A stretch of 64,000 bases of DNA. Origin: Thermoanaerobaculia bacterium. GTDB taxonomy: Bacteria; Acidobacteriota; Thermoanaerobaculia; Multivoradales; Multivoraceae. This document shows positions 5,036 to 62,112 of the stretch, piece by piece. The stretch lies in the NCBI GenBank assembly GCA_963664405.1, contig OY761158.1, forward strand, positions 554,038-618,037, written 5' to 3'. Within the stretch, counting starts at the first letter, position 1. Every line of letters begins with the position of its first letter. A program made the translations under genes and the position numbers. A model generated the notes under the pieces. It ran no database searches. It saw nothing but the letters and a program-made list of their open reading frames with translations, and had not been told where the DNA came from.

Positions 5036-5039
5036 GCCC

Positions 5040-11581: not shown

Positions 11582-13792
11582 TCAGACCACCTCGAGCAGC
11601 GCCCCGTCGTCTCGCCTCGCGACCACTCTCCCGATCCTCGCGACAGGTGTCGCCGCAGCAAGAGACCTCGACAGATCGGGCACCAGCCCGGGATCGACCC
11701 CAAACAGGAGCCCACCCGAAGTCTGCGGATCGAAGAGGAGCTCCAGGCGTGGATCCCCAGTGAGCCTCGGCTCCACCACGATGCCCCTACGAGCGCGCTC
11801 GTTCTCGGCATGAAAGGTACTGCGCAGACCTCGGGCGAGAAGCGCCTCCGCACCCTCGAGAGCAGGAAGGCTGTCGAGCTCCACCGAGCTGCTGGCACCG
11901 CTGGCACGAAGCATCTCGCCCAAGTGACCGGCGAGCCCGAAACCGGTCACATCAGTTGCCGCCTCGACTCCGTAAGATCGCAGCACCTCGAAAGCCGCTG
12001 CGTTGCTTTCGAGCACCGAGAGCAGAGCACCCTCCAGCCAGCGGCCCCGGGCCAGACCTTGCATGTCACTATGGAAGATCACACCAGTGCCCAAACGCTT
12101 GGTCAGGAGCAACTCCTGTCCCTCCCGCAGTGCGTCGAGCCGAAAGAGCGCAGCCTCCGATTCCGCAAAGCCATCGACCGAGAAGCCCACCATCAATCGA
12201 GCTGCCGTCGTGGTGTGGCCGCCGAGAAGCCGAACCCCGAGTGCCCCGAATGCGGCCCTGGCTCCCGACAACGCCTGGAACAGGATCTCTTCCGCCTCCA
12301 CGCTGTCGCTGCTCTCAGGCACCGCAACCAACGCCATGGCGTAGCGCGGTCGCACACCCGTCGCCAGTAGATCGGAGGCAGCGTTTACCGCCGCCGCTCC
12401 GCCAACAGACCAGGCGTCATCCGTAAAGGCGCTGAACATGTCGACACTGGTGGCAAGCAGTTGGCCCCCGGGCATGCGCACCGCCGCTGCATCGTCGGCG
12501 CTATCGAGGCCGAGGACGACATCGCCATCGCCATCGCCATGGTCAGGCCCCACTCGCTCCAATGCGCGCTGAAGCACGGTCTGCCCCACTTTTGCAGCGC
12601 AACCGCCACATAGCATCGACATCTCGCGGTTCATTGCCGGGAACTCCTCCGAGAGCTCTCCCTCCCTGCTCAAAACCTGAAAACGACGCATGAAGCGGCG
12701 ATCAATCCAGTCCTTCAACCGCATCACCCAGCGCCCCTCGAAAGAGAGCCTCCACTTACTACCAATGGCAGTCCCGTCGCCGAGATTGAGCAAGGCAAGG
12801 AAGTCGGACTGCGGCCGATACCGGCGCAGCTCACCCTCGTCGAGGGCGGCGCGAAGGTTGTCGATCAGATAGGGCCCCTGCCGAACCGCATAGACCCCGG
12901 CCTTCGCCGTGCCGGGGTGGTCTCGCAGCGTCGCGCAGTCGCCCACGGCGAAAATATCGTCGTGGCCATCTACCTGTAGGGTTGGCCGCGCGCACACAAA
13001 GCCCTGGGCGTCCACCGTCAGCCCCGAGCCGGCAAACAGGCCATGACCTGCGGCACCCGTGACCCAAAGCAGAAGGTCGAAGTCGACCTCGCCTCCCCCC
13101 TCGAGCAAGACCCGACCCTCCTCCGCGGAGGCGACCTTGGCGCCGCAGCGAACTTCGATACCGCGAGCCTCAGCCCGCTCCATCACCCGCTTCACCAGAC
13201 TTGGTGGCGAGCCCAGCAGGATCCGATCTTCTGCGTGCAGCAGAACGATCTCCACACCTTCAAGCCCCTCCCTTTGCAGCCGGACCTGAAGGGTGAAGGC
13301 CAGCTCGACACCGGCGACGCCGCCCCCCACCAGTACGGCCCTGAATCGGCCGGACTCTGCGTCCGCGCTTGCGCGCTTCACCGCCGCGTCGACAGAGTGA
13401 ACAAAGCGGCCGATGGGACGCGTCGGCCGGGCGTATTCCCGCACTCCGGGCAGGTCGAGTCCGCGCACTGTAGAGCCGACATCGAAAGACACCACATCGT
13501 ATGGAACCGGCGGACGACCGACGAGGAGCACCTTCTTCTCCTCAGGGTCCACGCCTTCCGCGGGCGCGAGAATCACTCGAGCACCGGCACGCCGCGCCAG
13601 AGGCACTACGTCGATCTCGAGCTCGTGCTCGTCGTACTGACCCGCGACGAAGCCCGGGACCATACCGGAGTACACCGCGATCGGCGTGTCGAGGACCACC
13701 GTGATGCGCGTCGCCGCCGGCGGCGCCATCGCGAACCGCCGTAGCACCTGAACGTGGGTGTGCCCGCCGCCGACGAGAACCAGCTCTCGCAT
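11582..13792 (-). CDS. selD: Fusion of FAD-dependent pyridine nucleotide-disulfide oxidoreductase (NADH dehydrogenase-like) and selenide, water dikinase SelD
   Basis: N-terminus LVLVGGGHTHVQ plus a second Rossmann motif VLVGGGVAGVE. C-terminal half MLCGGCAAKVG...ATDVTGFGLAGHL...QTSGGLL is AIR-synthase/SelD-like with the Cys-x2-Lys active-site loop. The longest ORF starts at 13816. Confidence 0.85.
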   Translation of the reverse strand: MRELVLVGGGHTHVQVLRRFAMAPPAATRITVVLDTPIAVYSGMVPGFVAGQYDEHELEIDVVPLARRAGARVILAPAEGVDPEEKKVLLVGRPPVPYDVVSFDVGSTVRGLDLPGVREYARPTRPIGRFVHSVDAAVKRASADAESGRFRAVLVGGGVAGVELAFTLQVRLQREGLEGVEIVLLHAEDRILLGSPPSLVKRVMERAEARGIEVRCGAKVASAEEGRVLLEGGGEVDFDLLLWVTGAAGHGLFAGSGLTVDAQGFVCARPTLQVDGHDDIFAVGDCATLRDHPGTAKAGVYAVRQGPYLIDNLRAALDEGELRRYRPQSDFLALLNLGDGTAIGSKWRLSFEGRWVMRLKDWIDRRFMRRFQVLSREGELSEEFPAMNREMSMLCGGCAAKVGQTVLQRALERVGPDHGDGDGDVVLGLDSADDAAAVRMPGGQLLATSVDMFSAFTDDAWSVGGAAAVNAASDLLATGVRPRYAMALVAVPESSDSVEAEEILFQALSGARAAFGALGVRLLGGHTTTAARLMVGFSVDGFAESEAALFRLDALREGQELLLTKRLGTGVIFHSDMQGLARGRWLEGALLSVLESNAAAFEVLRSYGVEAATDVTGFGLAGHLGEMLRASGASSSVELDSLPALEGAEALLARGLRSTFHAENERARRGIVVEPRLTGDPRLELLFDPQTSGGLLFGVDPGLVPDLSRSLAAATPVARIGRVVARRDDGALLEVV

Positions 13793-13831
13793 ATGAGTCG
13801 GAGTGACCAAATCCACGTACCGGCCCGATCC

Positions 13832-31126: not shown

Positions 31127-31231
31127 TACTAGTAGCTTCCGTCGCAGTGTGGCTGTAGGACAAAAGATCTGTCCGTTTGCGATGACCCGGATGAGGAGAT
31201 TAGACTGGTGAACCAATCCGTCTGGAGGTCC

Positions 31232-32338
31232 ATGATGATGAAACTAAAGGCGAGCCTGCTCACGGCAGCCGCCCTCGCTGTTGTAAGCGCACCGCCCCTA
31301 GTTGCAGAGGCCGACGGCATCGCACGCACGGCGAGCGGGCACCCGAATTTGTCGGGCACCTACAACGCCGCCACCCTCACTCCTCTGGAGCGCCCAAGAG
31401 CGCTGGGCGAAAAGGCCTTCCTGACAATCGAGGAAGCCAAAGCTCTCGCCGACGAGGAGCGCGACGTGATCTCCAGGGCCTCAGCGCAGTCGGACGCCAA
31501 CCGAGAGGCGCCGGCCGAAGGCGGCGCAAAAGTCGTCGGCCTAGAGCACACCGCGACCGGAGGCAATGAGTTCGGTGCCGGCAACGTCGGCGGTTACAAC
31601 TTCTTCTGGATCGACCGCGGCAGCGATGCCTTCGCTATCGACGGTCAGCTCCCGACGTCAATCATCGTAGATCCGTCCAACGGACGCATGCCAGCCATGA
31701 GGCCGGCAGCAATGAGGGAGCTGATGGCCCGGTTCTCGAGCTTCCTCCGCCCCAACGATGGCACCGCGTGGTGGGTCACTCAGGATGGGCCTGGCCCCTA
31801 TGACGGGCCCGAGTCGCTCGCGGTCAGCGAGCGCTGCATTGTCGGCTTCACCGGCGCCGCGCCGACCCTTCCCAGCCTCTACAACAACTTCAAGAGAATC
31901 GTGCAGACCGACGATGACATCATGATCCTTATCGAGATGGTCCACGACGCGCGCCTCGTGCGCATGAAATCCGAAGGGCGCCCCGCGACGCACTTACCAC
32001 CCGGCGTGAACAAGTGGCTCGGCGACTCGATCGGCTGGTGGGAGGGCGACACGTTGGTCGTCGACACCACCAACTTCCACCCCCAGGCGGCAATGCGCGG
32101 CGGCTCGGAAAACACCCACGTCGTCGAGCGCTTCATGATGCAGCCGGACGGCAACGTCGTCTATCGCTTCACGGTCGAGGACGACGGGGTATGGACGGCG
32201 CCATGGACCGGTGAGTACATCTGGCGGGCGAGCGACGATCGCGTCTTCGAGTACGCCTGTCACGAAGGAAACTACGCGATGGGTAACATCATGCGTGGAG
32301 CTCGGCTACTCGAAAAGGAAGCTCTAGAAGCGAACTAA
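31232..32338 (+). CDS. Secreted hypothetical protein, paralog A (ACHEGNY motif family)
   Basis: Signal peptide MMMKLKASLLTAAALAVVSAPPLVAEA. Shares TPLERP..LGEK..L..EEA.AL and FEYACHEGNYAMGNIMRGARLLEKEA with 34854-35840. Confidence 0.75.
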   Translation: MMMKLKASLLTAAALAVVSAPPLVAEADGIARTASGHPNLSGTYNAATLTPLERPRALGEKAFLTIEEAKALADEERDVISRASAQSDANREAPAEGGAKVVGLEHTATGGNEFGAGNVGGYNFFWIDRGSDAFAIDGQLPTSIIVDPSNGRMPAMRPAAMRELMARFSSFLRPNDGTAWWVTQDGPGPYDGPESLAVSERCIVGFTGAAPTLPSLYNNFKRIVQTDDDIMILIEMVHDARLVRMKSEGRPATHLPPGVNKWLGDSIGWWEGDTLVVDTTNFHPQAAMRGGSENTHVVERFMMQPDGNVVYRFTVEDDGVWTAPWTGEYIWRASDDRVFEYACHEGNYAMGNIMRGARLLEKEALEAN

Positions 32339-32540: not shown

Positions 32541-33053
32541 CTACTCGCCGCGAAAGTTCAAATCGGAAACGGTCCGGCCCATCATCTCGCGAATGCTCTG
32601 CCGCAGCTCCTCCGGCGTCGGTCGACCGACGAAGTACCAGCCGTTCCAGATCCGGTGGATCTCGAGGCTGGGCAGCAGTGCAAAGGTGAAGGGCACCGGT
32701 AACGGACCGTGCCGTTTGTCTGTGGTCTCGCGAATGCCAAGCTCGTCCGTCAGGCGAAGCTCCTCGTCGCTCAGGAACGGAAATCTCGCGCCGAGGCCGC
32801 AACGAAAAGCCTCCTGCACCCGCGGTGGATCGACCGAGATCGCGGCGACGCGGCAGTACGCGACCTCGCTAGATTGGTGGAACTCGACCAGCTCCCTCAG
32901 CTGCAGCTGTCACTTCGGTCACCACGGCCCTCGATAGAAGGCCAGAATCAGGGGATTGCCGTCGGCAACCTCTGCGATGGAGACTGTCTGGCCCCGATCG
33001 CTGGTTAGAGGAAGCGACGGGAAGGTGTCACCGACATCGAGCCGTAGAGACAT
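32541..33053 (-). CDS. Prx/AhpC-TSA-like thiol-disulfide oxidoreductase with UxxU motif (two in-frame TGA = Sec candidates), SelL-like
   Basis: Track ORFs 32919-33143 and 32541-32819 share one frame. The only stops between ATG 33053 and TAG 32541 are TGA 32919-21 and TGA 32910-12. Read-through gives ...NPLILAFYRGPW-U-PK-U-QLQLRELVEF...VAAISVDPPRVQEAFRCGLGARFPFLSDEELRLTDELGI... Confidence 0.7.
32874..32912 (-). promoter_or_regulatory. Candidate bacterial SECIS stem-loop
   Basis: CAGCU-GAGGG-AGCUG hairpin at 32889-32903, 6 nt after the second UGA, with a G-rich apical loop. An alternative longer helix, UGACAGCU...AGCUGGUCG, includes the second UGA. Confidence 0.35.
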
Positions 33054-33236
33054 GAGAAGTTTTTGAGGGAGTTTCTGTTTCCACAACCGGCGATCAACTC
33101 GAAACCGAGTAGATCGGCTCAGAACCCACCTACAGTACCGCATGACCTGCGTAGCGCGATTACGTCAGCTGAGAGGATCGCCGAGAGCGGCGTTCTACTC
33201 CTTGCGATGCACCTTGGCGTATCGTTCGATGCCGTC

Positions 33237-34853: not shown

Positions 34854-35840
34854 CTACTTCTCGGCGCCACTTTTCAAGGAGGTCTTCTCTTCGAGGGCGG
34901 CCTTCTCCTGGTAGCGGGCTCCGGACAGAATGTTGGGCAGTCCGTAGTTGCCCTCGTGACACGCGAACTCGTAGATCGGTCCCTCGATGGCGCGTAGCGT
35001 GTTCTCGAGAGTCCACGACTGCGTATAGCTCGCCGGATCGGTCACGGTGAGTGAGTAGTCGATCGTATTCTCGTCGAATCGCACGAGGCGCTCGACCAAA
35101 CGCAGGCCGGCCGTCGCGCCCATGAACGGGTTGCGGCCATCGAAGCCGGCCGTCTCGATCACCAGAGTGTCTCCTTCCCAGTGGCCACGTGAAGATCCGT
35201 CCCAGAGGGCGATGTCCTCGCCGAGGGCCGGCCGGCCGTCGAGGGGAACCAGGCGGATCTGCGGACCGTGCTCGCTGAGGATGGCCACGGTTTCGGGCGT
35301 CTGGAGGATGTGATGGTTGTGCAAATAAAGGTTGCTGGGAAAATAGAAGAAGCCGGTCATCAGGCAGCGGGTGGCGATGTGCAGATCCTCGTGCGAGTCG
35401 AGAGACCCGAAGCCGAGCAATTGGAGCGTCGACTTTGTGTTCCGCTGACGACCTTCCGGGGTGAATGGGATCTTGCCGTCCGGCGGGTCCACGACCAACG
35501 ACGTGCGGCGACTGCGCACGACTTCAGTGCCTGGCTCGAGGAAGATCTCGGTCAGCTCACCGGTGGTCTTGCCCTCTGCCGTGCCTTCGACGAGGTTGAG
35601 GACGTTCTCGAGGCCGGTGCCCCGTAGCGCCTCAGCCTCCTCTTCGCTCAGGTGAGTCTTGTCTCCCAGCTCGGCGGAACGCTCCATGGGAGTGACGGTG
35701 GCATTGCTCCACAGGCCCTGGAGATCCGGATCGCCCCACTCGGTGCGAGGTGCCGTCTGCGCCTCGGCGGCAAGTACCGCGAACGCCGTCGTCGCGGCAA
35801 CGGCGAGGGCGAGTTGGATAAAGATTCGTCGAGGTCTCAT
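34854..35840 (-). CDS. Secreted hypothetical protein, paralog B (ACHEGNY motif family)
   Basis: Signal peptide MRPRRIFIQLALAVAATTAFAVLAAEA. TPMERSAELGDKTHLSEEEAEAL and YEFACHEGNYGLPNILSGARYQEK. The longest ORF starts at 35930. Confidence 0.75.
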   Translation of the reverse strand: MRPRRIFIQLALAVAATTAFAVLAAEAQTAPRTEWGDPDLQGLWSNATVTPMERSAELGDKTHLSEEEAEALRGTGLENVLNLVEGTAEGKTTGELTEIFLEPGTEVVRSRRTSLVVDPPDGKIPFTPEGRQRNTKSTLQLLGFGSLDSHEDLHIATRCLMTGFFYFPSNLYLHNHHILQTPETVAILSEHGPQIRLVPLDGRPALGEDIALWDGSSRGHWEGDTLVIETAGFDGRNPFMGATAGLRLVERLVRFDENTIDYSLTVTDPASYTQSWTLENTLRAIEGPIYEFACHEGNYGLPNILSGARYQEKAALEEKTSLKSGAEK

Positions 35841-35872
35841 GCGCCGCCTCGCGGGGGCCGAGCGGCCGGCCA

Positions 35873-36514
35873 TCAACCAGCCCGGACCAAGCCGTCCTGG
35901 TCGTAGTGGTGGACGCAGAAGAGCGCCCATGAATCTTCGAACGCCATTTCCAGCTCACCGTTCACCGAGGTCGTGCCTCGTCCGATTGCCCCGTAGGTGA
36001 ACTCGAAACTACCGCTCGGGCGCACCAGTGCAATGTCGAACGGTTCGCCATTGAACTCGTTGATCATCGGTCTGCCGCTACTCTTCACGACGCCAGGGAT
36101 GTCGACCTTCGCGGTCCTGAGCTCCAGGTCCACCTCGAGATCGATCGGCAGAAACAGTGTCTCGAAAAACTCCGAGCACAAGGAACCGAACACGGCGAAA
36201 TGATTGCTGAGAGGCGCGCATGCCTCGCCCGCGACTATCGTCTCGAGAGCAATCCGCTGAGCCTCGTCCGCACGCTCGTCGACAACGATCTGGCGCTTCC
36301 CGTTTCCCTCGGCGATCTCACCGGGGAATATGCAAAGCATCGACCAATTCAGGCCCGAGAGCGGCGTGTCGTTGAAATGACCTTCCACGACGGTGCCGAC
36401 GTAGGCGAAGTGACAATTGCCGTGTGTCGTGGGCTCGTTGAATTGACAACCACAGCTCACGGAGCAATTGCAGTTGTCGTAGGTATGGCTCCTGAACTCC
36501 CAATGGTCAGGCAT
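35873..36514 (-). CDS. DUF1326 domain protein
   Basis: MPDHWEFRSHTYDNCNCSVSCGCQFNEPTTHGNCHF Cys pattern. GGGAGGA lies 8 nt upstream of ATG 36514. Confidence 0.8.
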   Translation of the reverse strand: MPDHWEFRSHTYDNCNCSVSCGCQFNEPTTHGNCHFAYVGTVVEGHFNDTPLSGLNWSMLCIFPGEIAEGNGKRQIVVDERADEAQRIALETIVAGEACAPLSNHFAVFGSLCSEFFETLFLPIDLEVDLELRTAKVDIPGVVKSSGRPMINEFNGEPFDIALVRPSGSFEFTYGAIGRGTTSVNGELEMAFEDSWALFCVHHYDQDGLVRAG

Positions 36515-38269: not shown

Positions 38270-39299
38270 CTACGCGGCTTTTCTTTCGATGGTGAAGTCT
38301 CGATCCTCGCGCCACACCGTCCAGGCAATGCGGGCGATCTTGTTCGCCAGCGCGACGGCGGCGCGGTTGTGTCCTCGGCGTTTCTCGACCTGCAGCGCCC
38401 ACGTGTACAGAGGGCTTGGGTTGTGGACTCTCTTGGCCGCCAACAGACAGGACCGAGCGCCGTGAATCAGAAGCCACCGCAGGTACTCGTCGCCTTGTTT
38501 GCTGATGTGGCCGAGCCGACGCTTTTGGGCGGTGGCGTGCACGCGCGGGGTCAGGCCCAAGTACGATCCAAAGCGTCGAGCCGAGGGGAAGCGGTGGATC
38601 TCGCCGACAAACGCCACCATCGCGGTGGCGGTGAGCGGGCCGATGCCGGGCACAGATTGCAGATGCGCGACGGCGGGCATCGTCGGGGCCAGTGCCTCGA
38701 GCTGCTTGGAAACGCTCGCGCAGCGCCGCTCCAGCTCCCGGATCTCCTCACATGCTTCCGCCAGGGTCAAACGCATGGGGTCGGGCAGATCGTTGGCGTC
38801 ATCTGCGATCAGCTCTCGTACCCGGGGCACTACGTTCTTGGCACCCTGGGCGATGAAGTGACCGTGCTCTCGCAACAGGCCGCGTACGCCGTTCAGCCGT
38901 GCCGTGCGCGTCTCCATCCAGGCCGAGCGCAACCGGTGCAAGGCCCCCACACCGCGCTGCTCGACGGTCTTGATCGGCACCGGCTCGATCTCCTCGTTGC
39001 GGTCGGCTTCCAGCAGCGCCTTCGCATCCGTGCGATCGGTCTTCTTGTGCCGGCGACGGTAGGGCCGTACCAGGTGAGGCGGTAGCAGCACCACCTCGTG
39101 ACCGAGCTTCTGGATCTCCTCAGCCCAGAAGTGGGCGGAACCACATGCCTCCAGAAGCACACGCGAAGCCTCGCGCTGCGCGAAGAACCGCAGAAACTTC
39201 TTCCGCGACAAGCGACACCGTTCGGCCACCTTCCCGGGAACGTGGGACACGGCGATCTCCAAGACGTTTTTCGCCAAGTCGACGGCGATGGTCGTAGAC
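38270..39299 (-). pseudogene. IS110-family transposase gene interrupted after codon 3 by IS21 copy 2
   Basis: ...TTIAVDLAKNVLEIAVS...PGIGPLTATAMVAFVGEIHRFPSARRFGSYLGLTPRVHATAQKRRLGHISKQGDEYLRWLL. ATG-CAG-TCT lies at 42699-42691 on the far side of the IS. TAGAC is duplicated at 39295-99 and 42690-94. Confidence 0.88.
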
Positions 39300-39658
39300 T
39301 GTTGATGGCTGCGAGAAAGCGCATCCCGTTGGCTGCGAGCGCAGTTTCCGGGATGGAGTGAGCTGAGGGCTTCGCGACCGCGGGAAAGCTAGGCCTTCTT
39401 CAGGAAGGGCGGCATCATCCCGCCGGAACGGCGGTCCGGGTGCGTGGTCCCGGCGGCGTGTTTGCGGTCGGAAGAGATGCGTGAGTCGGTGTAGGGCTTT
39501 GCAGTGCGGGCTCTGCTCTGATAGAGCAGGCCGACCAGAGACGGCGAGAGCCCGGGAAAGCGAAGTAGAAAACGCCCCGGGCTCTGCCCCAAACCGCAGC
39601 ATTAGCTGCGCTTGCAGTATGGCAGAGAGTCGGGGTCGTCGTCGAATGGGAGGCGACG

Positions 39659-40054
39659 ATGCGACCGGACTACCGACTCTTCGACTGTGCTCGATGCCGT
39701 CGGCGTATCTCGCTGTGCTCGCACTGTGACCGTGGCCAGCGTTACTGCCGGGCTTGTGCTCTGGTGGCTCGTCGGGAATCGACTCGGGCGGCCGGCCATC
39801 GGTACCAGCGAAGCCTCCGAGGTCGGCATTGTCATGCCGCCCGTCAGGCCCGCTACCGTCGGCGCCAGCGCGAGCGGGCAGAGAAAGTGACGCATCAGGG
39901 TACCCCAGGCGGTACTTCGGGGAGGACACTGTGTCGGATCGAGACTCCGAGGCGCGAAGTGCGCTACGACCCGAGGAATCCGCGATGCATGCAGTGTGGA
40001 GAGGCCTGCCGAGAGTTTGTGCGAACGAGCTTTCGTCGTTGCCGACGGAGATAG
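39659..40054 (+). CDS. Cys-rich (three CxxC) basic protein upstream of istA
   Basis: Identical to 5040-5435(-). Confidence 0.5.
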   Translation: MRPDYRLFDCARCRRRISLCSHCDRGQRYCRACALVARRESTRAAGHRYQRSLRGRHCHAARQARYRRRQRERAEKVTHQGTPGGTSGRTLCRIETPRREVRYDPRNPRCMQCGEACREFVRTSFRRCRRR

Positions 40055-40058
40055 GGGC

Positions 40059-41567
40059 GTGATCGACGCACAGCTGCGCGGGGAGATCCGTCGTCTGTTC
40101 CTGGTCGAGAAGTGGAAAGTCGGCACGATCGCTCGACAGCTACAGCTGCACCCCTCAACCGTGCGCCGGGCGCTGGAGAAGTCCGGCGTGCTACCCCAGC
40201 AGCGACGAGGGAGGATGATCGATCCTTACCTGCCGTTCATCGAGCAGGTGCTCGGGACCTACCCACGACTGCCGGCGAGCCGTCTCTACACCATGGTGGT
40301 GGAGCGCGGCTATCCAGGAGGCCCGGATCAGTTTCGCCACCTGGTGGCCTCGATGCGACCGAAGCCCCAGCGCGAGGCGTTTCTCTCGCTGCGCATGCTG
40401 CCAGGAGAGCAGGCGCAGGTCGACTGGGGCCACTTCGGTCGGCTCCGCGTCGGCCGGGCACATCGTCGGCTCTATGCCTTCGTCTTCGTGCTGTCGTTCT
40501 CGCGCACGGTCTTCGTGCACTTCACCCTCGACACTCGTCTCGAAACCTTCTTGCACGCTCACCAGCTGGCCTTCCACTACGTCGACGGCGTCGTCAGGAC
40601 CGTTCTGTACGACAACCTGCGAACCGCGGTGATCGAGCGGCAGGGAACCGCGGTGCGCTTCCATCCCGTGCTGCTCGATTTCGCCAGCCACTACGGCTTC
40701 CTTCCCACCGTCGCCGCGGTGGCTCGGGGAAATGAGAAAGGCCGCGTCGAGCGCGCAATCCGCTTCCTGCGAAGCTCGTTCTTCGGCGCCCGAACGGTGA
40801 GCGATTTGGATCGTCTGAATCGGCAGGTCCTGGAATGGTGCCAGAGGTCGCAGCGCAGACCCTGGCCGCAGGACCGACAGCGAACCGTGAAAAGCGCCCT
40901 GGCCCAGGAACGACCTCGACTGCTTGAGCTTCCCGGAGACGACTTCGAAACCGACCTGCGACTGGAGATCAAGGTCAGAAAGACGCCGATCGTGCGCTTC
41001 GACCTCAACGACTACTCGGTGCCGCACAGTCATGTGCAGAGGACCGTCACGCTCCTCGCCAGCGAGCATCGGGTGCGGATCCTCGATGGCCAGGAGCTCC
41101 TCGCCGAGCACCCTCGCTCGTACTCCCGGGGCGAGCAGATCCTCGATCCTCAACACCTCGAGGAGCTCCTCGCTCACAAACGCAGGGCCCGACGACACCG
41201 GGGCTTCCATCGGCTGTTTTCCGCTGTGCCTCGATGCGAAGAGCTGATGCAGCAGCTCGCCGAGCGAGGCGAGAACCTCGGAACGCAGACCGCCGGCCTG
41301 CTCCGACTCCTGCGCCAGTACGGCCCCCAGCGACTCGACAAAGCCGTGCGCGAAGCGCTCCTGAACCACGCACCGCGATTCCAGTCCGTCCGGCTCCTAC
41401 TCGAACGGCACCAGCGCGGCCTCGGTCAGCCCCCGGCTTTACCGGTGCCGCTCAGCCAGGAGCTCCAACAGCGAGATCTCTCCGTGAGACCGCACAACCT
41501 CGAGGACTACGACCAACTTGGAGGCAACGACGATGGCCCGACCCAGGAAGAGTCCAACGATCCCTGA
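40059..41567 (+). CDS. istA: IS21-family transposase IstA
   Basis: Identical to copy 1. GTG 40059 is preceded by GGAG. The longest ORF starts at 39996. Confidence 0.92.
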   Translation: MIDAQLRGEIRRLFLVEKWKVGTIARQLQLHPSTVRRALEKSGVLPQQRRGRMIDPYLPFIEQVLGTYPRLPASRLYTMVVERGYPGGPDQFRHLVASMRPKPQREAFLSLRMLPGEQAQVDWGHFGRLRVGRAHRRLYAFVFVLSFSRTVFVHFTLDTRLETFLHAHQLAFHYVDGVVRTVLYDNLRTAVIERQGTAVRFHPVLLDFASHYGFLPTVAAVARGNEKGRVERAIRFLRSSFFGARTVSDLDRLNRQVLEWCQRSQRRPWPQDRQRTVKSALAQERPRLLELPGDDFETDLRLEIKVRKTPIVRFDLNDYSVPHSHVQRTVTLLASEHRVRILDGQELLAEHPRSYSRGEQILDPQHLEELLAHKRRARRHRGFHRLFSAVPRCEELMQQLAERGENLGTQTAGLLRLLRQYGPQRLDKAVREALLNHAPRFQSVRLLLERHQRGLGQPPALPVPLSQELQQRDLSVRPHNLEDYDQLGGNDDGPTQEESNDP

Positions 41568-42327
41568 CGAACCACTACGAGAGCTCGCCCGATCCCTCGG
41601 CTTCTACGCCCTCGTCGACGACTGGGGCACCTACCGAGAACAGCCCTGGCTCGAACAGCTGCTGCGCAAAGAAGAGGCCGAGCGCAAACGGCGCAGCCTC
41701 GAACGGCGCATCCGCACCAGCCGCGTCGGGCTCTTCAAGAGCATCGCCGACTTCGACTTCTCCTGGCCCCAGCGCATCGACCGCGAGCAGATCCAGGATC
41801 TGCTCACCCTCCAATTCCTCGACGACATCACCAACGTCATCCTCCTCGGACCCAACGGTGTCGGCAAGACCATGATTGCCAAGAACCTCCTCTACCAGGC
41901 GCTGCAACGAGGGGCCACCGCCAGCTTCGTCACCGCCTCCGACATGCTCAACGATCTCGCCGTCCAGGAAACCCCCTCGGCGCTCCAGAGAAGGCTCTCC
42001 AAATACACCCGACCCTCGCTTTTGGCAATCGATGAGCTCGGCTATCTCTCCTACGACCACCGCCACGCGGATCTCCTCTTCGAGGTCGTCTCCAGGAGAT
42101 ACGGCAACAAGCCCATTCTTCTCACCACCAACAAGCCCTTCGCCGAATGGGCCGAGGTCTTTCCCAACGCCTCCTGCGTCGTCACTCTCGTCGATCGACT
42201 CACCCACCACGCCGAGATCGTCAAGATCGAGGCTAACTCCTATCGCCGCAAGGAGGCCAAGGAGGCTGCTGAAAAAAAGGCCAAGGACCGCGCCAAAAGG
42301 CGGAGCGCAGCACGACGACGCTCATGA
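41518..42327 (+). CDS. istB: IS21-family helper ATPase IstB
   Basis: Identical to copy 1. Confidence 0.95.
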   Translation: MEATTMARPRKSPTIPDEPLRELARSLGFYALVDDWGTYREQPWLEQLLRKEEAERKRRSLERRIRTSRVGLFKSIADFDFSWPQRIDREQIQDLLTLQFLDDITNVILLGPNGVGKTMIAKNLLYQALQRGATASFVTASDMLNDLAVQETPSALQRRLSKYTRPSLLAIDELGYLSYDHRHADLLFEVVSRRYGNKPILLTTNKPFAEWAEVFPNASCVVTLVDRLTHHAEIVKIEANSYRRKEAKEAAEKKAKDRAKRRSAARRRS

Positions 42328-42680
42328 CCCGAAGCCACTATCGGCGCCAGCTCCTCCGCCTCTATCGACTCCTTCCCGACACCCCGCACCGCTTCCACCA
42401 CGGCGACCGCGTCATCGTCGACCAGCTCTTCGACCAAGACCTGCCTCTCACCGTCCTCCAGGCCGCCCTCCTCCTCGGCTCCGCCCGACGCGCATGCCGA
42501 GATCCGCGCCTACCAAAGCTCCAGCCCATCCGATCCCTCGCCTACTTTCTCCCCATCCTCCGAGAACTCCCCACGACGCCACCCCCCGAGGGGTACCTCG
42601 ACTATCTGCGCCACACCCTGAGTCACGCCTCGCGGGGACAAAAAACCGACTCGCAGCCAACTAAGTGCGCTTTCTCGTAG
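42324..42680 (+). CDS. IS21 accessory ORF downstream of istB (118 aa, intact form)
   Basis: ATGA overlap with the istB stop. Ends 9 nt inside the right terminal repeat. No domain recognised. Confidence 0.45.
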   Translation: MTRSHYRRQLLRLYRLLPDTPHRFHHGDRVIVDQLFDQDLPLTVLQAALLLGSARRACRDPRLPKLQPIRSLAYFLPILRELPTTPPPEGYLDYLRHTLSHASRGQKTDSQPTKCAFS

Positions 42681-42804: not shown

Positions 42805-42969
42805 AAGGCTTGAACGAAGGCCGCTGCGCGGCAGTTCCGGACGATGAGTCGAAGATCGTGGTCGTAGCGCCGGGCGTGAGCCGCGCCGAGAGTTAGCCAC
42901 GGTCGAGGAAAGTCTCCATCCTCTTGGTTTGGCGTCAATGCCGACGCCTGCAACGAGGAGGACCCTGTC

Positions 42970-43830
42970 ATGGGTGCACTGAGAGATCGGATGGAGACGG
43001 ACATGAAGCTGCACGACTTTCGACCGGCGACCCAATCGCAGTACTTGCACTGCGTGCGCCGGCTGGCGAAGCACTACGGGCGCTCGCCCGATGAGCTGTG
43101 CGAAGAGGAGGTGCGCAGTTTCCTGCTCTACCTCCGCGAGGACCGTGCTTTGAGCTCGGCGAGTATCAGCACCTACACGGCGGCGCTGAAGTTCTTCTAC
43201 GGGATCACCCTTCACCGCGAGGAGATGGTGCCCTCGTTAGGCGCGCCGAAGGTGCGCACGCAGCTTCCGGTCATCCTCTCGGGCACCGAGGTCGCGGCGG
43301 TGCTTGGCGCGATCCGCTCGCACGAGCTGCGTACGTTGGCCACGGTTCTGTACGCTTCGGGCCTGCGCATCAGCGAAGCGTGCGCGCTGGAGGTGTCAGA
43401 CATCGACTCCGAGCGCATGCTGATCCATGTGCGCGACGGTAAGGGCGGGCGCGACCGCTTCGCCCTTCTCAGCCCGCAGCTGCTCAAGGTGCTGCGTCGA
43501 TACTTCCGCAAAGAGCGCCCCGAGCCGCCCTATCTGTTTCCCGCTCCGCGCTCCGGCAAGACGTTGCGCCCCGACACGGTGCGTAAGAGCCTGCATCGGG
43601 CGGCTTTGCGCTGCGGGATTGTCAAGCGTGTGACCCCACACCTGCTGCGTCACTGCTTTGGCGCCCACATGCTGGAACTGGGCACTGATATCCGTGTGCT
43701 GCAGGCGCTGTTGGGTCACCGCTCGATCCGCACGACCCAGCTGTACGTACAGGTCTCCACCCAGCTGATCGCGCGCACCCCAAGCCCGTTGGACCTGCTC
43801 GGCACTCCCGCGGGCAAGGTCCTCGGATAA
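42970..43830 (+). CDS. Tyrosine site-specific recombinase (phage-integrase family)
   Basis: SAM-like N-domain. Catalytic ASGLRISEA (R), HLLRHCFGAHML (HxxR), LLGHRSIRTTQLY (H...Y). Confidence 0.9.
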   Translation: MGALRDRMETDMKLHDFRPATQSQYLHCVRRLAKHYGRSPDELCEEEVRSFLLYLREDRALSSASISTYTAALKFFYGITLHREEMVPSLGAPKVRTQLPVILSGTEVAAVLGAIRSHELRTLATVLYASGLRISEACALEVSDIDSERMLIHVRDGKGGRDRFALLSPQLLKVLRRYFRKERPEPPYLFPAPRSGKTLRPDTVRKSLHRAALRCGIVKRVTPHLLRHCFGAHMLELGTDIRVLQALLGHRSIRTTQLYVQVSTQLIARTPSPLDLLGTPAGKVLG

Positions 43831-43848
43831 CCGCGCGCTACAGCAACC

Positions 43849-45075
43849 GTGCACCCCCAGCAGGGGTGCGCTCGGCAGCTCGACCGCAAGGCGGGTCGGC
43901 CTCGCTTTGAGCTCGGCGAGATCTTCCGGGCGCACATCGACGCCTTTCGCGACCGCACCACCCTGAGCCCAGAGCAGGCTCAGGTGGTGCGGGCCCTCTG
44001 TGCCTGCCGCACCGCGCAGCTCGGCGGGCATCTGGACGTATGTCTGAACTGCGGCTTTAGGCGCCCGGCCTATAACTCATGCCGGAATCGTCACTGCCCC
44101 AAGTGCCAGGCGCTGGATCAGCACCGCTGGCTCGAGCGGCGCCTTTCTCGCATCCTGCCGGTCGCGTACTTTCACGTCGTCTTCACTCTGCCAGGAGAGC
44201 TTGCCTCGGTCGGCCTGCGCAACCGGCGGTTGGTGTACGAGCTGCTCTTCCGAGCCGCCTCCGAAACGCTGTTGACCCTTGGCAAGGACCCCCAGCGGCT
44301 CGGGGCTCTGCTCGGCATCACAATGGTGCTGCACACCTGGACCCGGGACCTGCGCTTCCATCCGCATGTGCACGCCATCGTCACGGGCGGGGGTCTGAGC
44401 CTCGAGGGTCAGCGGTGGCTCTCGACGGGCAACAAGTATCTGTTTCCCGTGAAGCTTCTGGGCAGGCTGTACCGCGGCAAGTTTCTGCACCACCTCGCCC
44501 GCGCTTACCAAGACGGACAGCTCGACCTGCCAGCAGAGCTGGCTGCCGACGGTGGCTTCGACCGCCTGCTGGACAAGCTCTACGCCAAGGACTTCATCGT
44601 CTACGCCAAGCGTCCCTTCGCCGGCCCGCAGCAGGTCTTCTCCTACCTCGGCCGCTATACCCATCGGGTCGCCCTGTCCAACCACCGAATCCTCGACGTT
44701 ACCGACAAGGCCATCACCCTCGCCACCCGCCACCCAAAGACGGTGACGCTGTCCCCCGAGGAGCTCATCCGCCGTTTCCTACTGCACGTCCTGCCCCGAC
44801 GATTCCAAAAGATCCGCCATTACGGATTGATGGCCTCGGCCAACGTCCACTCTCGCCTCGAGCGAGCCCGCGCTCTGCTCGAGTCCACCGCCACAGCTAC
44901 CCAGGCCGAAACCTCCCGCCCCGTCCCCATCGAGTCGGAAACCACAAACGAGCTCCTCCAACGCCTCACCGGCATCGACCTCGCGATCTGTCCCGCCTGC
45001 CAAGGTCCCCGCCTCCAACGTTTCCCCCTCGACCCTCCTGCCTACGCCCGGCCTCCACCGGTGGCGGCCGCGTGA
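43849..45075 (+). CDS. IS91-family (HUH/Y2 rolling-circle) transposase
   Basis: Zn-finger CLNCGFRRPAYNSCRNRHCPKC. YFHVVFTLP, LHTWTRDLRFHPHVHAIV (HUH), YLGRYTHRVALSNHRI (Y motif). Confidence 0.9.
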   Translation: MHPQQGCARQLDRKAGRPRFELGEIFRAHIDAFRDRTTLSPEQAQVVRALCACRTAQLGGHLDVCLNCGFRRPAYNSCRNRHCPKCQALDQHRWLERRLSRILPVAYFHVVFTLPGELASVGLRNRRLVYELLFRAASETLLTLGKDPQRLGALLGITMVLHTWTRDLRFHPHVHAIVTGGGLSLEGQRWLSTGNKYLFPVKLLGRLYRGKFLHHLARAYQDGQLDLPAELAADGGFDRLLDKLYAKDFIVYAKRPFAGPQQVFSYLGRYTHRVALSNHRILDVTDKAITLATRHPKTVTLSPEELIRRFLLHVLPRRFQKIRHYGLMASANVHSRLERARALLESTATATQAETSRPVPIESETTNELLQRLTGIDLAICPACQGPRLQRFPLDPPAYARPPPVAAA

Positions 45076-45418
45076 TCCCACGCCTTTCTCTTCCCGCGCT
45101 CCCGGTCCCGCCGCGGACAAGGCGGAGGTGTGCCCGCGGTGGCTCCGAACCCAAAATCGAGACGCCGGTGGACCTCCCAGGGGCCGCGCAGGCGCCTGAC
45201 CGCAACCCAGTGCACCTCTGGAACTACCTCACAACCCTCGACCTGGGGCGCGTCGCGCGCAGCACAGCCTGCCAACGAGGCTGATAACCCCATACACAAC
45301 CGCTCGTCTGGCGGCCTCCGCTCAAGCCAGGTCTAGCAGAATCCCGCTCGGGTAGATCCGCGCGACGACGACCCTCCTACCTCGCGGGACTCTGCGAGAT
45401 CCTTCTCCTTATGCAGAA

Positions 45419-55132: not shown

Positions 55133-56205
55133 TTCTTGACAGGTTCCGCGATGATCTTGTGCTCGACTATCAAGAGGGCAAGGAAAAGTACGCCTATGAT
55201 CTTCGGTTCTCGCGGGGTGGGATTCGCAGATGGGTAACCAAAAGGCGAATGCCTCGCCATCAGTGCAAGTCGTGCAATCATGCATTTATACCGGTCGAAC
55301 CGAAGTCTCAACAGCGCCTCGGCCACAACCTGCTCGCTTGGGCCATGCACCAGCATGTCATCAACCGAACTTCCCTCGCGAACCTGACGATGACCGCACG
55401 TGAGTGTTTTGGCTTGGAACTCGGAGAATGGGACTTCCAGAGGCTGAAGTCAATGGCCGGGAAGTACTATCAAGAAACGTATGACAAGTTACTGAGTGAG
55501 CTGGTGGCGGGGCCTCTGCTTCATATCGACGAGACGAGTGTTTGGTTAAGAGGCCATGTCACCGGCTACGTGTGGGTATTCACAAGCATGGAGTCGGTCG
55601 TGTTCATGTACCGGTCTACGCGGGAAGGCGATTTTCTACACGACCTCTTGCGGACGTTCACGGGCGTAATGGTGACGGACTTCTATACGGCGTATGACTC
55701 GATACAGTGCCCACAGCAAAAATGCCTAGTGCACCTGATGTGGGATATCAATCGGGCGCTGCTTAAGCATCCGTTTGACGAGGAACTGAACGAACTTGGC
55801 AGGACGTTTGGGACTCTCATGCGAGATGTCGTCGGCACAATCGATCGATTTGGTTTGAAGGACCGGTATCTGAGAAAGCATCGAGAGCAAGCGTCGACAT
55901 GGCTTCGCGGACTGCGAGGGAGTCCGTGGAAATCGGTCATCGCGGAGAAGTTTCGTAAGAGGATTGTCAAGTACGACGATCGTCTATTCACTTTCCTCGA
56001 CTACGATGGCGTACCTTGGAATAACAACAACGCTGAGAATGCAATTAAGCCGTTTGCGAAGTACAGAAGACTGGTTCGGGGACGGATAACCGAGCCTGGA
56101 CTTCGCGACTATTTGGTGCTGCTGAGTATTGCCCACACATGCAAATACCGTAGCGTCTCACTGCTTGACTTTCTCTTGTCCGGGGCTCAGGAGATTCCTG
56201 ATTGA
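55133..56205 (+). pseudogene. C-terminal part of the fusion gene: second half of zf-IS66 + IS66-family DDE transposase domain
   Basis: ...HQCKSCNHAF. HIDETSVWLRG..GYVWVF, VMVTDFYTAYD, CLVHLMWDINRA, PWNNNNAENAIKPF. In frame with 51792-53493 once the IS3 is removed. Confidence 0.8.
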
Positions 56206-62094: not shown

Positions 62095-62112
62095 CCGCGC
62101 GCTACAGCAACC

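What the first reader, a model, noticed from the sequence alone, without database searches (positions are those of the whole stretch)
32541..33053. Prx-like gene with two in-frame TGA codons exactly at the CxxC positions (UxxU, SelL-like selenoprotein candidate)
The two short minus-strand ORFs in the track (32919-33143 and 32541-32819) share one frame, since 33053-32819=234. They are separated only by TGA 32919-21 and TGA 32910-12. Read-through from ATG 33053 gives MSLRLDVGDTFPSLPLTSDRGQTVSIAEVADGNPLILAFYRGPW-U-PK-U-QLQLRELVEFHQSSEVAYCRVAAISVDPPRVQEAFRCGLGARFPFLSDEELRLTDELGIRE... This is the AhpC/TSA (Prx-like, thioredoxin-fold) pattern FYRGxW-CxxC-xxQL...ISxD...FPxLSD. Both TGAs sit where the two redox cysteines are expected. 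A hairpin, CAGCU-GAGGG-AGCUG (32889-32903), follows the second UGA by 6 nt and has a G-rich loop, as bacterial SECIS elements do. A UxxU diselenide motif in a Prx-like fold is the hallmark of the SelL family, which has been described from aquatic eukaryotes and marine bacteria. Standard gene callers will miss this gene or split it. selD lies 19 kb away in the same window.
Basis: partly seen in the sequence, partly recalled or inferred. Interest (0 to 1): 0.85.

Follow-up and report, generated by a model that had tools for sequence, protein, structure and literature searches.

The report
Double-selenocysteine thioredoxin-fold redox gene
This is a real, intact gene for a small redox protein whose two "stop" codons are read as the rare amino acid selenocysteine; it belongs to a class that is already catalogued, but this branch is cut short in every public protein record I retrieved for it.

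Summary
On the minus strand, ATG 33053 to TAG 32541 is one 170-codon frame, interrupted only by TGA 32921-32919 (codon 45) and TGA 32912-32910 (codon 48). I recovered 119 orthologous loci from at least seven phyla. Position 45 is TGA in 118 of them. Position 48 is TGA in 97 and Cys in 22. Neither site is ever TAA or TAG, and the protein is conserved on both sides. All 94 distinct full-length genes keep a 6-bp hairpin (window 32895-32879, loop GGUCG). It shows compensatory changes and meets the published bacterial SECIS criteria for both UGAs. A selD gene (an oxidoreductase-SelD fusion) lies in the window; selA, selB and tRNA-Sec do not. Profile alignments to solved structures point to a ResA-like thioredoxin-type active site: Sec45 is the nucleophile, Sec48 the partner, and a conserved Pro replaces the peroxiredoxin Arg. 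It is therefore not a classical peroxiredoxin. SelL membership is not supported (32 bits against a cut-off of 120). The nearest relatives are one-cysteine C-P-K-D/E proteins. The class "Prx-like thiol:disulfide oxidoreductase, UxxC/UxxU" is already catalogued, so this is a new member of a known kind.

The parts
32541..33053 (-). Complete selenoprotein coding sequence: 170 codons plus the TAG stop. ATG at 33053-33051, Sec45, Sec48, stop at 32543-32541.
   Evidence: Searches give the frame. One search gives the Pfam AhpC-TSA match. In one search, all 109 complete orthologues have 44 codons from start to the first UGA, and 99 of them are 170 aa. In several loci a stop codon lies just upstream of the start, which fixes the start site.
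32919..32921 (-). UGA-1 = Sec45, the invariant selenocysteine. It aligns with the single conserved Cys of the non-seleno relatives and with the nucleophilic Cys74 of ResA.
   Evidence: TGA in 118 of 119 loci; never Cys, TAA or TAG. Searches give the alignments.
32910..32912 (-). UGA-2 = Sec48, the partner (resolving) position. It is interchangeable with Cys among orthologues.
   Evidence: TGA in 97 loci and TGC/TGT in 22; the Sec and Cys forms are interleaved in the tree; it aligns with Asp/Glu in the non-seleno relatives and with Cys77 of ResA.
32879..32895 (-). Conserved SECIS-type hairpin inside the coding sequence: 5' arm GGAGCU (32895-32890), apical loop GGUCG (32889-32885), 3' arm AGUUCC (32884-32879). 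The loop starts 29 nt after UGA-1 and 20 nt after UGA-2.
   Evidence: RNAalifold picks this hairpin; 100% of cells paired, 19 compensatory cells, 0 of 500 shuffles reach this, and slid controls give at most 51%; 6 of 6 pairs are kept in 94 of 94 unique genes, with GC/AU/GU alternation at three pairs; it meets the published bSECIS criteria quoted; four non-seleno relatives keep only 2-5 of the 6 pairs.
11582..13816 (-). Trans-acting component: a 744-aa fusion of a pyridine-nucleotide-disulfide oxidoreductase and selenophosphate synthetase (SelD). It is the Cys form, with active-site region CGGCAAK.
   Evidence: Pfam Pyr_redox_2 + AIRS + AIRS_C. TIGR00476 selD 240 bits against a cut-off of 125; TIGR03169 Nterm_to_SelD 398 bits against 310. 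One search gives the active-site sequence.

Best explanation
The locus is an intact gene for a 170-residue cytoplasmic selenoprotein with a thioredoxin fold and the active-site motif W-U45-P-K-U48. Both in-frame UGA codons are read as selenocysteine. The recoding signal is a single mRNA hairpin inside the coding region (window 32895-32879; 6 bp with a GGUCG loop). It lies 29 nt from UGA-1 and 20 nt from UGA-2, within the range at which SelB bound to Sec-tRNA(Sec) is recruited in bacteria. Selenophosphate comes from the SelD fusion encoded 19 kb away. The protein has the scaffold of the AhpC/TSA superfamily but a thioredoxin-type (ResA/TlpA-like) catalytic centre. Sec45 sits at the N-cap of helix alpha-1 and is the attacking nucleophile. 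Sec48, one helical turn later, resolves the intermediate by forming a diselenide; in the UxxC orthologues this would be a selenenylsulfide. A conserved Pro121 occupies the cis-Pro position. The most likely activity is therefore selenol/thiol-disulfide exchange, that is, reduction of an unknown disulfide or oxidised substrate, rather than classical peroxiredoxin chemistry. What is shown here: the frame, the conservation of the UGAs, Sec/Cys alternation at position 48, covariation in the hairpin, the fold of a 41%-identical relative, and the residue correspondences. What is inferred: actual Se insertion, the diselenide, the cis conformation of Pro121, the substrate, and the reductant. The confidence of 0.85 combines about 0.95 that this is a genuine Sec-decoded gene with about 0.6 that the thioredoxin-like mechanism is right.
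For: UGA conservation: (118/119 and 97/119 TGA, 22 Cys at position 48, no TAA or TAG). Constant architecture and a coding signature on both sides of the UGAs. TGA is the ordinary stop in this genome (12 of 18 Pfam-confirmed genes), so this is local recoding and not a changed genetic code. SECIS: judged against the model quoted; the negative control in non-seleno relatives is. SelD. Fold: pLDDT 90 for proxy P0139; BCP and ResA, target-normalised TM 0.82-0.88. Active-site assignment: (Sec45 = conserved Cys = ResA Cys74; Sec48 = ResA Cys77; Pro121 = ResA cis-Pro = BCP Arg). Several independent Sec/Cys switches at position 48 fit a resolving role for that residue. Reviews already list PF00578 Prx-like thiol:disulfide oxidoreductases with UxxC/UxxU as high-confidence predicted selenoproteins.
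Against: selA, selB and tRNA-Sec are not in the 64-kb window or in the locus flanks I scanned for tRNAs (51 loci, 3-kb flanks), and I could not search the rest of the genome. No Rfam family matches. The hairpin's folding energy in the window is not better than that of shuffled sequence (z = +0.6), so its support is comparative only. The hairpin overlaps conserved codons (R-E-L-V-E/Q-F), so part of its nucleotide conservation comes from the protein; for example, the loop GU is the Val codon. The structural model is of a 41%-identical Cys/Glu relative, not of the selenoprotein itself. There is no conserved gene neighbourhood to indicate a substrate or reductant. There is no experimental evidence of Se incorporation.
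Confidence: 0.85

Rival explanations
1. It is a true peroxiredoxin (peroxidase). Sec48 occupies the peroxidatic-cysteine position of the PxxxTxxC motif and reduces peroxides. Sec45 is an extra residue that replaces the catalytic Thr and acts as the resolving partner.
For: The Pfam AhpC-TSA match. The best PDB sequence and fold matches are BCP/PrxQ enzymes. In those alignments residue 48 falls on the peroxidatic Cys and residue 45 on the Thr. Sec-containing Prx (TxxU) exists (Table 2).
Against: The residue conserved across the wider family is position 45 (Cys or Sec). Position 48 is Asp/Glu in the closest non-seleno relatives. The catalytic Thr is absent, and the catalytic Arg is replaced by an invariant Pro that aligns with the ResA cis-Pro. 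The NCBIfam BCP equivalog scores 31 bits against a cut-off of 140. In all 119 loci it is position 45 that is kept as Sec, while position 48 drifts between Sec and Cys.
Confidence: 0.12
2. It is a bacterial orthologue of selenoprotein L (SelL), the UxxU diselenide protein of fish, invertebrates and marine bacteria.
For: It has a UxxU motif in a Prx-like thioredoxin fold, and one intragenic SECIS serves two UGAs. The latter is how the SelL paper's abstract describes bacterial SelL; that is my own recollection, because the paper is not held. SelL's occurrence and diselenide are cited in PMC2397514. The best NCBIfam hit is 'SelL-related redox protein'.
Against: That hit scores 32 bits against a curated cut-off of 120 and is no better than the BCP hit. 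The non-seleno relatives score 24-29 bits. There is no similarity to GOS 'Prx-like 2', the only group in which that study saw UxxU. The nearest relatives are C-P-K-[DE] proteins. The carriers are mostly Acidobacteriota, Myxococcota, Acidimicrobiales, Binatia, Latescibacterota and SAR324.
Confidence: 0.1
3. The UGAs are decoded, but not as selenocysteine. For example, Cys could be inserted by a non-canonical tRNA with SelB, or there could be near-cognate read-through (Trp, Cys or Arg).
For: The tRNA-Sec, selA and selB genes were not seen. Sec-to-Cys recoding systems have been described in some bacteria (my own knowledge, not checked here).
Against: A selD that passes the equivalog cut-off lies in the same window. 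The hairpin meets all the bSECIS criteria. Position 45 is never a Cys codon in 119 loci, which would be odd if Cys were the residue inserted there. TGA is the normal stop in this genome.
Confidence: 0.03
4. It is a pseudogene: an AhpC/TSA gene inactivated by two nonsense mutations, or a sequencing artefact.
For: A few relatives do look decayed: L033 (Ser at position 45), L102 (frameshift), and L066/L067 (TAA inside the hairpin).
Against: The same two codons are TGA in about 100 independent assemblies from at least seven phyla, with no TAA or TAG. The length and frame are intact, and both halves show purifying selection.
Confidence: 0.01

Closest known systems
Prx-like thiol:disulfide oxidoreductase selenoproteins (PF00578; UxxC/UxxU; 'Prx-like 1' of the GOS and Sargasso Sea surveys; example WP_010940744.1)
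   Same: The Pfam domain PF00578 is the same. Sec is at the first position of a U-x-x-C/U motif preceded by RG-x-W, as in the GOS reads FYRGHWUPYC and RGAWUPKC. The SECIS is intragenic. One or two Sec residues occur, as listed in the 2022 and 2026 reviews.
   Different: Similarity to the GOS Prx-like 1 reads is limited to about 31-45 residues around the motif (38-45% identity). The C-terminal two thirds (HGPLPVPFTFALLP...NGWYFVGRPTPEELR) are specific to this clade. Here UxxU is the majority state (97 of 119). The motifs RGPWU, UPKU and GWYFVGRP are absent from the stored copy of the GOS sequence file. I could not fetch the archetype sequence for a direct comparison.
Selenoprotein L (SelL)
   Same: A UxxU redox motif in a Prx-like thioredoxin fold. 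One SECIS element is used for two nearby UGAs. Relatives exist with one Sec replaced by Cys.
   Different: Sequence membership was not met (32 bits against a cut-off of 120 on the NCBIfam SelL-related model). The nearest relatives are one-Cys C-P-K-D/E proteins. The carriers are largely non-marine-specific bacterial phyla. No eukaryotic members were seen.
ResA/TlpA-type thiol-disulfide oxidoreductases (e.g. Bacillus subtilis ResA, PDB 1st9/3c71)
   Same: The fold (target-normalised TM 0.82-0.87). A W-C-x-x-C-type motif at the N-cap of helix 1. The conserved Pro aligns with the cis-Pro loop (PLPTTF).
   Different: Sec replaces Cys. There is no N-terminal membrane anchor, so the protein is probably cytoplasmic. 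The NCBIfam ResA model scores only 17 bits against a cut-off of 170. The protein is not linked to cytochrome c maturation genes.
BCP/PrxQ peroxiredoxins (e.g. M. tuberculosis BcpB, PDB 5epf)
   Same: These are the best sequence and fold matches in the PDB, and they share Pfam family PF00578.
   Different: The catalytic Thr is replaced by Sec45 and the catalytic Arg by Pro121. The peroxidatic position is Asp/Glu in the nearest non-seleno relatives.
Unnamed AhpC/TSA subfamily with RG-x-x-C-P-[KR]-[DE] (some members fused to a cold-shock domain)
   Same: These are the true nearest relatives: 34-44% identity over the full length, with shared signature blocks (SxDPP, FLSD, P-x-TF-x-L, NGW/YW-F-x-GRPT-x-EEL-R).
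   Different: They have Cys instead of Sec at position 45 and an acidic residue instead of Sec/Cys at position 48. They have no in-frame UGA and no conserved hairpin. They often carry C-terminal extensions, including a cold-shock domain.

Membership tests
Bacterial selenoprotein gene (Sec-UGA recoding) | An in-frame UGA conserved among orthologues and aligned with Cys in homologues, with the protein conserved on both sides | tested here: met
   Position 45 is UGA in 118 of 119 loci and aligns with Cys in the non-seleno relatives. Position 48 is UGA in 97 and Cys in 22.
Bacterial selenoprotein gene (Sec-UGA recoding) | A bSECIS element downstream of the UGA: 3-9 nt loop, 4-16 bp stem, G[G|U] at the start of the loop, 16-37 nt from the UGA, MFE <= -7.5 kcal/mol (model quoted from PMC13188914) | tested here: met
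   The loop is 5 nt (or 3), the stem 6-8 bp, and GGU or CGU starts the loop in 94 of 94 genes. The spacing is 29 nt (UGA-1) and 20 nt (UGA-2). The MFE is -12.2 kcal/mol in the window, and 98% of genes are at or below -7.5. Covariation is shown.
Bacterial selenoprotein gene (Sec-UGA recoding) | Sec machinery in the genome: selD, selA, selB and selC (tRNA-Sec) | tested here: inconclusive
   selD is present as a fusion. selA, selB and tRNA-Sec are not in the window or in the scanned 3-kb flanks of 51 loci.
Bacterial selenoprotein gene (Sec-UGA recoding) | Selenium demonstrably incorporated (75Se labelling or mass spectrometry) | not testable with these tools
   Needs an experiment.
Prx-like thiol:disulfide oxidoreductase selenoprotein (PF00578, UxxC/UxxU) | PF00578 (AhpC-TSA) domain above the gathering score | tested here: met
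   68.9 bits against a cut-off of 26.
Prx-like thiol:disulfide oxidoreductase selenoprotein (PF00578, UxxC/UxxU) | Sec at the first position of a UxxC/UxxU motif that corresponds to the thioredoxin CxxC | tested here: met
   (aligned with ResA Cys74 and Cys77).
Prx-like thiol:disulfide oxidoreductase selenoprotein (PF00578, UxxC/UxxU) | Full-length similarity to the archetype sequences (WP_010940744.1; GOS Prx-like 1 reads) | tested here: inconclusive
   The GOS reads align over only about 31-45 residues around the motif. WP_010940744.1 could not be retrieved.
Selenoprotein L (SelL) | A UxxU motif at the CxxC position of a thioredoxin-like fold | tested here: met
Selenoprotein L (SelL) | Sequence membership (a score above the cut-off on a SelL-derived model) | tested here: not met
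   NF040769 SelL_rel_redox scores 32.1 bits against a cut-off of 120, equal to the hit on BCP.
Selenoprotein L (SelL) | Direct homology to Danio rerio SelL or to the bacterial SelL sequences of the 2007 paper | not tested
   The paper and its sequences are not held.
Selenoprotein L (SelL) | A diselenide bond between the two Sec residues | not testable with these tools
   Needs protein chemistry. The geometry (i, i+3 on the first helical turn) is compatible in the proxy model.
Peroxiredoxin (BCP/PrxQ type) | Catalytic Thr/Ser three residues before the peroxidatic Cys (PxxxTxxC) | tested here: not met
   the Thr position is occupied by Sec45, or by Cys in the relatives.
Peroxiredoxin (BCP/PrxQ type) | A conserved catalytic Arg before strand beta-6 (R-x-T-F) | tested here: not met
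   the invariant Pro121 aligns with the Arg of 5epf (KRTTFVI) and of 2cx3 (AKRAVFI).
Peroxiredoxin (BCP/PrxQ type) | A peroxidatic Cys conserved across the family | tested here: inconclusive
   That position is Sec or Cys in the seleno clade but Asp or Glu in the closest relatives.
Peroxiredoxin (BCP/PrxQ type) | The NCBIfam equivalog score | tested here: not met
   31.3 bits against a cut-off of 140.
ResA/TlpA-type thioredoxin-like oxidoreductase | A W-C-x-x-C motif at the N-cap of helix alpha-1, with the N-terminal residue as nucleophile | tested here: met
   The nucleophile role itself is inferred.
ResA/TlpA-type thioredoxin-like oxidoreductase | A conserved cis-Pro loop opposite the active site | tested here: met
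   the invariant Pro121 aligns with the Pro of ResA PLPTTF. The cis conformation itself was not measured.
ResA/TlpA-type thioredoxin-like oxidoreductase | An N-terminal membrane anchor or export signal (extracytoplasmic location) | tested here: not met
   Direct reading of the N-terminus (MSLRLDVGDTFPSLPLTSDRGQ) shows no hydrophobic segment. No predictor was run.
ResA/TlpA-type thioredoxin-like oxidoreductase | The NCBIfam ResA score | tested here: not met
   16.8 bits against a cut-off of 170.

The most novel reading that the evidence does not exclude
This clade may be a distinct selenoprotein family that has not yet been described, found in at least seven bacterial phyla. On this reading it arose from one-cysteine C-P-K-[Asp/Glu] AhpC/TSA ancestors. 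The nucleophilic Cys became an obligatory Sec, and the neighbouring acidic residue became a second Sec, giving a natural diselenide centre (UxxU in about 80% of members). Both Sec residues are decoded from one short intragenic SECIS at two different spacings (29 and 20 nt). No NCBIfam model tested reaches its cut-off, and the gene is truncated in all of the 120 best-scoring public protein records.
Probability: 0.45. Interest if true: 0.5.

Novelty: new member of a known kind. Interest (0 to 1): 0.4.

Why it matters
Natural diselenide (UxxU) redox centres are rare, and SelL is the only one characterised biochemically. This clade offers about 100 natural sequences in which the second position switches repeatedly between Sec and Cys while the first stays Sec. 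That is a ready-made comparative series for asking what a diselenide gives a protein that a selenenylsulfide does not. It also allows a test of how far a single bacterial SECIS can sit from its UGA, since the same hairpin serves codons 20 and 29 nt upstream. On the practical side, the 120 best-scoring public protein records I retrieved for this family are all N-terminally truncated fragments that lack the active site. They are named 'hypothetical protein', 'redoxin domain-containing protein' or 'peroxiredoxin'. A dedicated model would correct the annotation in Acidobacteriota, Myxococcota, Acidimicrobiales, Binatia, Latescibacterota and SAR324 genomes, and would add to counts of selenium use outside the ocean.

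Tried and rejected
Rfam, at gathering thresholds on the whole window and at permissive E-values on 32700-33100, gave no SECIS or other relevant family; the only hit was a chance flavivirus stem-loop.

ARAGORN found no tRNA or tRNA-Sec in the window or in 51 loci.

A six-frame motif scan found SelD only, with no SelA or SelB signatures. The ORF at 50028-51005, which I first suspected to be selD, has no Pfam hit.

Single-sequence thermodynamics does not single out the real hairpin either (z = +0.6).

Clustering the flanking ORFs of 51 loci found no conserved partner gene, so the context says nothing about function.

I used the C-terminal profile and a 41%-identical proxy instead.

The SelL paper could not be retrieved by PMC id or by DOI.

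The GOS supplementary sequence file holds related UxxC reads but not this clade's motifs; the stored copy is truncated.

A crude scan for other genes with an in-frame TGA in the window gave only IS-element and intergenic artefacts.

A literature search for the literal motif returned only noise.
Full report
**1. The observation**

Reading the minus strand, ATG 33053-33051 opens a frame that runs to TAG 32543-32541. It is broken only by TGA 32921-32919 (codon 45) and TGA 32912-32910 (codon 48). The read-through product is 170 residues with the motif FYRGPW-U-PK-U-QLQL. The two ORFs that a mechanical ORF list reports (32919-33143 and 32541-32819) are the two halves of this frame. With Cys placed at both sites, the protein matches Pfam AhpC-TSA (E 5e-19, 68.9 bits against a cut-off of 26) and Redoxin.

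**2. Is it more than chance?**

A protein search gave 328 homologues. All of the best 120 are 95-137 residues long and begin at the first usable start codon after where the second TGA would lie. That is the pattern expected if gene callers stop at the same place in every genome.

I fetched the DNA of 51 loci from reference genomes and 79 from metagenomes. Of these, 119 cover the motif when the window is included. Position 45 is TGA in 118 and TCA in one; it is never Cys, TAA or TAG. Position 48 is TGA in 97 and TGC/TGT in 22. One locus has U-G-K-U.

All 109 complete genes have exactly 44 codons from the start to the first TGA, and 99 of them are 170 codons long. In several loci a stop codon lies a few codons upstream of the start, which fixes the start site.

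Nucleotide diversity by codon position is 0.35/0.25/0.55 upstream of the first TGA and 0.23/0.19/0.52 downstream of the second. Both halves therefore evolve as one protein in this frame.

The carriers are labelled Acidobacteriota (closest to the window, at 90-91% identity), Myxococcota, Latescibacterota, Binatia, Acidimicrobiales/Actinomycetota, SAR324 and others.

In the window itself, TGA is the ordinary stop codon in 12 of 18 Pfam-confirmed genes. The genetic code as a whole is therefore standard, and the recoding is local. A pseudogene explanation is excluded. A few relatives do look decayed: L033, L102, and L066/L067.

**3. The recoding signal**

I aligned 60 nt starting at the first UGA from 39 loci. 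RNAalifold picks a hairpin at columns 27-32/38-43. In window coordinates the 5' arm is 32895-32890 (GGAGCU), the loop is 32889-32885 (GGUCG) and the 3' arm is 32884-32879 (AGUUCC).

Explicit pair counting gives 100% of cells paired and 19 cells with compensatory double changes at three pairs. None of 500 shuffles reaches the observed percentage paired or covariation score, and sliding the partner by 1-3 nt drops pairing to 21-51%.

In the enlarged set, all 94 distinct full-length genes keep 6 of 6 pairs. Pair 27:43 is GC 63, AU 28, GU 3. Pair 30:40 is AU 62, GU 23, GC 9. Pair 31:39 is CG 81, UA 13. Several of these changes are synonymous on one side (CTG/TTG with CAG/CAA; GAA/GAG with TTC/CTC). 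One links a synonymous Arg change to a His-to-Ser replacement (CGG...CAC against CGA...TCT).

I judged the hairpin against the published bacterial SECIS model: 3-9 nt loop, 4-16 bp stem, G[G|U] at the start of the loop, 16-37 nt from the UGA to the loop, and MFE <= -7.5 kcal/mol (PMC13188914, quoted). Every gene passes the loop-G rule and the UGA-to-loop spacing, which is 29 nt for UGA-1 and 20 nt for UGA-2; 98% pass the energy criterion. The window's element has an MFE of -12.2 kcal/mol.

Four non-seleno relatives keep only 2-5 of the 6 pairs at the equivalent place and do not fold that way.

There are caveats. The hairpin overlaps the conserved codons R-E-L-V-E/Q-F, so part of its conservation is protein-driven. 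Its energy in the window is no better than that of shuffled sequence (z = +0.6). No Rfam family matches.

It shows 80% pairing, equal to the shuffle mean, and one pair is broken in 22 of 37 sequences.

**4. The selenium machinery**

It is a 744-residue fusion of a pyridine-nucleotide-disulfide oxidoreductase with SelD. TIGR00476 selD scores 240 bits against a cut-off of 125, and TIGR03169 'Nterm_to_SelD' scores 398 against 310. Its active-site region is CGGCAAK. This is the CxxC-type Ndh-SelD fusion described in the GOS survey.

selA, selB and tRNA-Sec are not in the window, and no tRNA gene lies in the 3-kb flanks of the 51 reference-genome loci. I could not search the rest of any genome, so this refutation test remains open.

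**5. What kind of protein is it?**

A profile search of 1.84 billion cluster representatives collapses the seleno clade into one 50%-identity cluster. It then finds several hundred more distant relatives (680 at E <= 0.001).

The full-length relatives are 34-44% identical to the window protein. Nearly all of those inspected carry RG-x-x-C-P-[KR]-[DE] (one has Asp in place of the Cys). That is Cys where the window has Sec45, and Asp or Glu where it has Sec48. Some are fused to a cold-shock domain. One such paralogue lies next to the selenoprotein gene in locus L009. None of them, and not the window protein either, reaches the cut-off of any NCBIfam model. The best hits are 'SelL-related redox protein' at 24-32 bits against a cut-off of 120, and BCP at 31 bits against 140.

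The tools would not accept my Cys-substituted sequence. I therefore modelled the compact relative P0139, which is 41% identical, using a 59-sequence alignment. The model has pLDDT 90.2 and pTM 0.85. Its Cys56 (equivalent to Sec45) sits at the N-cap of helix 57-67, and Glu59 (equivalent to Sec48) lies one turn in.

Foldseek against the PDB returns BCP/PrxQ peroxiredoxins and ResA-type thiol-disulfide oxidoreductases, with target-normalised TM scores of 0.78-0.88.

The profile alignments to solved structures settle the question. The family's invariant Pro121 aligns with the catalytic Arg of the BCPs (KRTTFVI, AKRAVFI) and with the cis-Pro of ResA (PLPTTFLI). Sec45 aligns with ResA Cys74 and Sec48 with Cys77.

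From established knowledge of the thioredoxin-fold superfamily, peroxiredoxins carry Thr and Arg where thioredoxin-like enzymes carry the N-terminal Cys and the cis-Pro. The active site is therefore thioredoxin-like. Two of the three peroxiredoxin catalytic residues are missing.

**6. Mechanism proposed**

Shown here: two conserved UGAs, one conserved SECIS-type hairpin at permitted distances from both, selD nearby, a thioredoxin fold, and a ResA-like arrangement of residues.

Inferred: SelB bound to Sec-tRNA(Sec) is recruited by the hairpin and decodes both UGAs. Sec45 is the nucleophile that attacks an oxidised substrate, either a disulfide or possibly a peroxide or selenenyl species. Sec48, or Cys48 in 22 orthologues, resolves the adduct to a diselenide or selenenylsulfide, which an unidentified reductant recycles.

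Position 45 is always Sec, while position 48 has switched between Sec and Cys several times in interleaved lineages. This fits catalytic and resolving roles respectively.

No signal peptide or membrane anchor is apparent in the N-terminus, so the protein is probably cytoplasmic. The gene's neighbours in the window are not conserved elsewhere: a VOC/glyoxalase-family gene, an APH-type kinase gene and two paralogous genes of unknown function. The substrate is therefore unknown.

**7. Comparison with what is known**

Two reviews (2022 and 2026) list 'Prx-like thiol:disulfide oxidoreductase, PF00578, UxxC/UxxU, 1-2 Sec' among the high-confidence predicted prokaryotic selenoproteins. The GOS survey's 'Prx-like 1' group contains reads with FYRGHWUPYC and RGAWUPKC. 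The window protein fits that class by domain and motif. It resembles those reads over only 31-45 residues. Its own signature strings are absent from the stored copy of the GOS sequence file and from the searchable literature.

UxxU was reported by the GOS survey only in 'Prx-like 2', to which the window protein has no detectable similarity.

SelL, the UxxU diselenide protein of fish, invertebrates and marine bacteria, works in the same way in outline. Membership fails on the only SelL-derived model available. I could not compare with SelL sequences directly, because the paper is not held.

**8. Verdict**

This is a genuine selenoprotein gene. It is a new member, arguably a distinct and unannotated subfamily, of an already catalogued kind. 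It is of moderate interest to specialists for three reasons: its predominantly diselenide-type motif, the repeated Sec/Cys switching at the second site, one SECIS serving two UGAs, and the truncation of all 120 best-scoring public records.

Noticed in passing
window 2429-5795 and 39299-42665: There is a 3,367-bp perfect (100% identity) inverted repeat. Each copy carries an IS21-like transposase (523 aa; rve + Mu-transpos_C_2) and a 262-aa second ORF. The two copies bracket about 33.5 kb that holds both the UxxU selenoprotein gene and the SelD fusion, but also housekeeping genes (LepA, a class II tRNA synthetase-like gene, a ClpB-like gene). This could be a recent IS expansion, an invertible segment or an assembly effect.
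   Followed up: partly
window 42805-45408 and 61069-63672; 56253-57506 and 59071-60334: There are two further direct repeats. One is a 2.6-kb unit at 95% identity that encodes a phage-type integrase plus an IS91-family (Y2_Tnp) transposase. The other is a 1.27-kb unit at 92% identity. With the IS30-like gene (48357-49754) and the IS66 gene (55159-56205), the right half of the window is very rich in mobile elements.
   Followed up: partly
window 11582-13816 (-): SelD is encoded as a fusion with an N-terminal pyridine-nucleotide-disulfide oxidoreductase domain and has a CGGC motif at the SelD active site. This is the 'Ndh-SelD' form noted in the GOS survey. It passes the selD equivalog cut-off but not the 'fusion_not_SelD' model cut-off (429 bits against 700).
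   Followed up: partly
window 31208-32338 (+) and 34854-35930 (-): Two paralogous genes (32% identity, E 6e-44) flank the selenoprotein locus. They have no Pfam or NCBIfam match and share a C-terminal ...E(Y/F)ACHEGNY... motif. The first has a hydrophobic N-terminus that suggests export; I did not check the second.
   Followed up: partly
L009 3665-4627 (-): A non-seleno paralogue (FYRGYFCRRDH, fused to a C-terminal cold-shock-like domain) lies about 300 bp from the UxxU gene in this genome. Cold-shock-domain fusions recur in the wider C-P-K-[DE] family (P0123, P0134, P0135).
   Followed up: partly
L033, L102 (and protein P0063); L066, L067: These are probable decaying copies of the selenoprotein gene. 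One lineage has Ser (TCA) at position 45, an internal deletion or a frameshift. Another has TAA replacing the Glu53 codon inside the SECIS stem; it was seen in two independent metagenome contigs.
   Followed up: partly
L068 (motif region): One orthologue carries U-G-K-U instead of U-P-K-U, so the Pro between the two Sec residues is not absolutely required.
   Followed up: no
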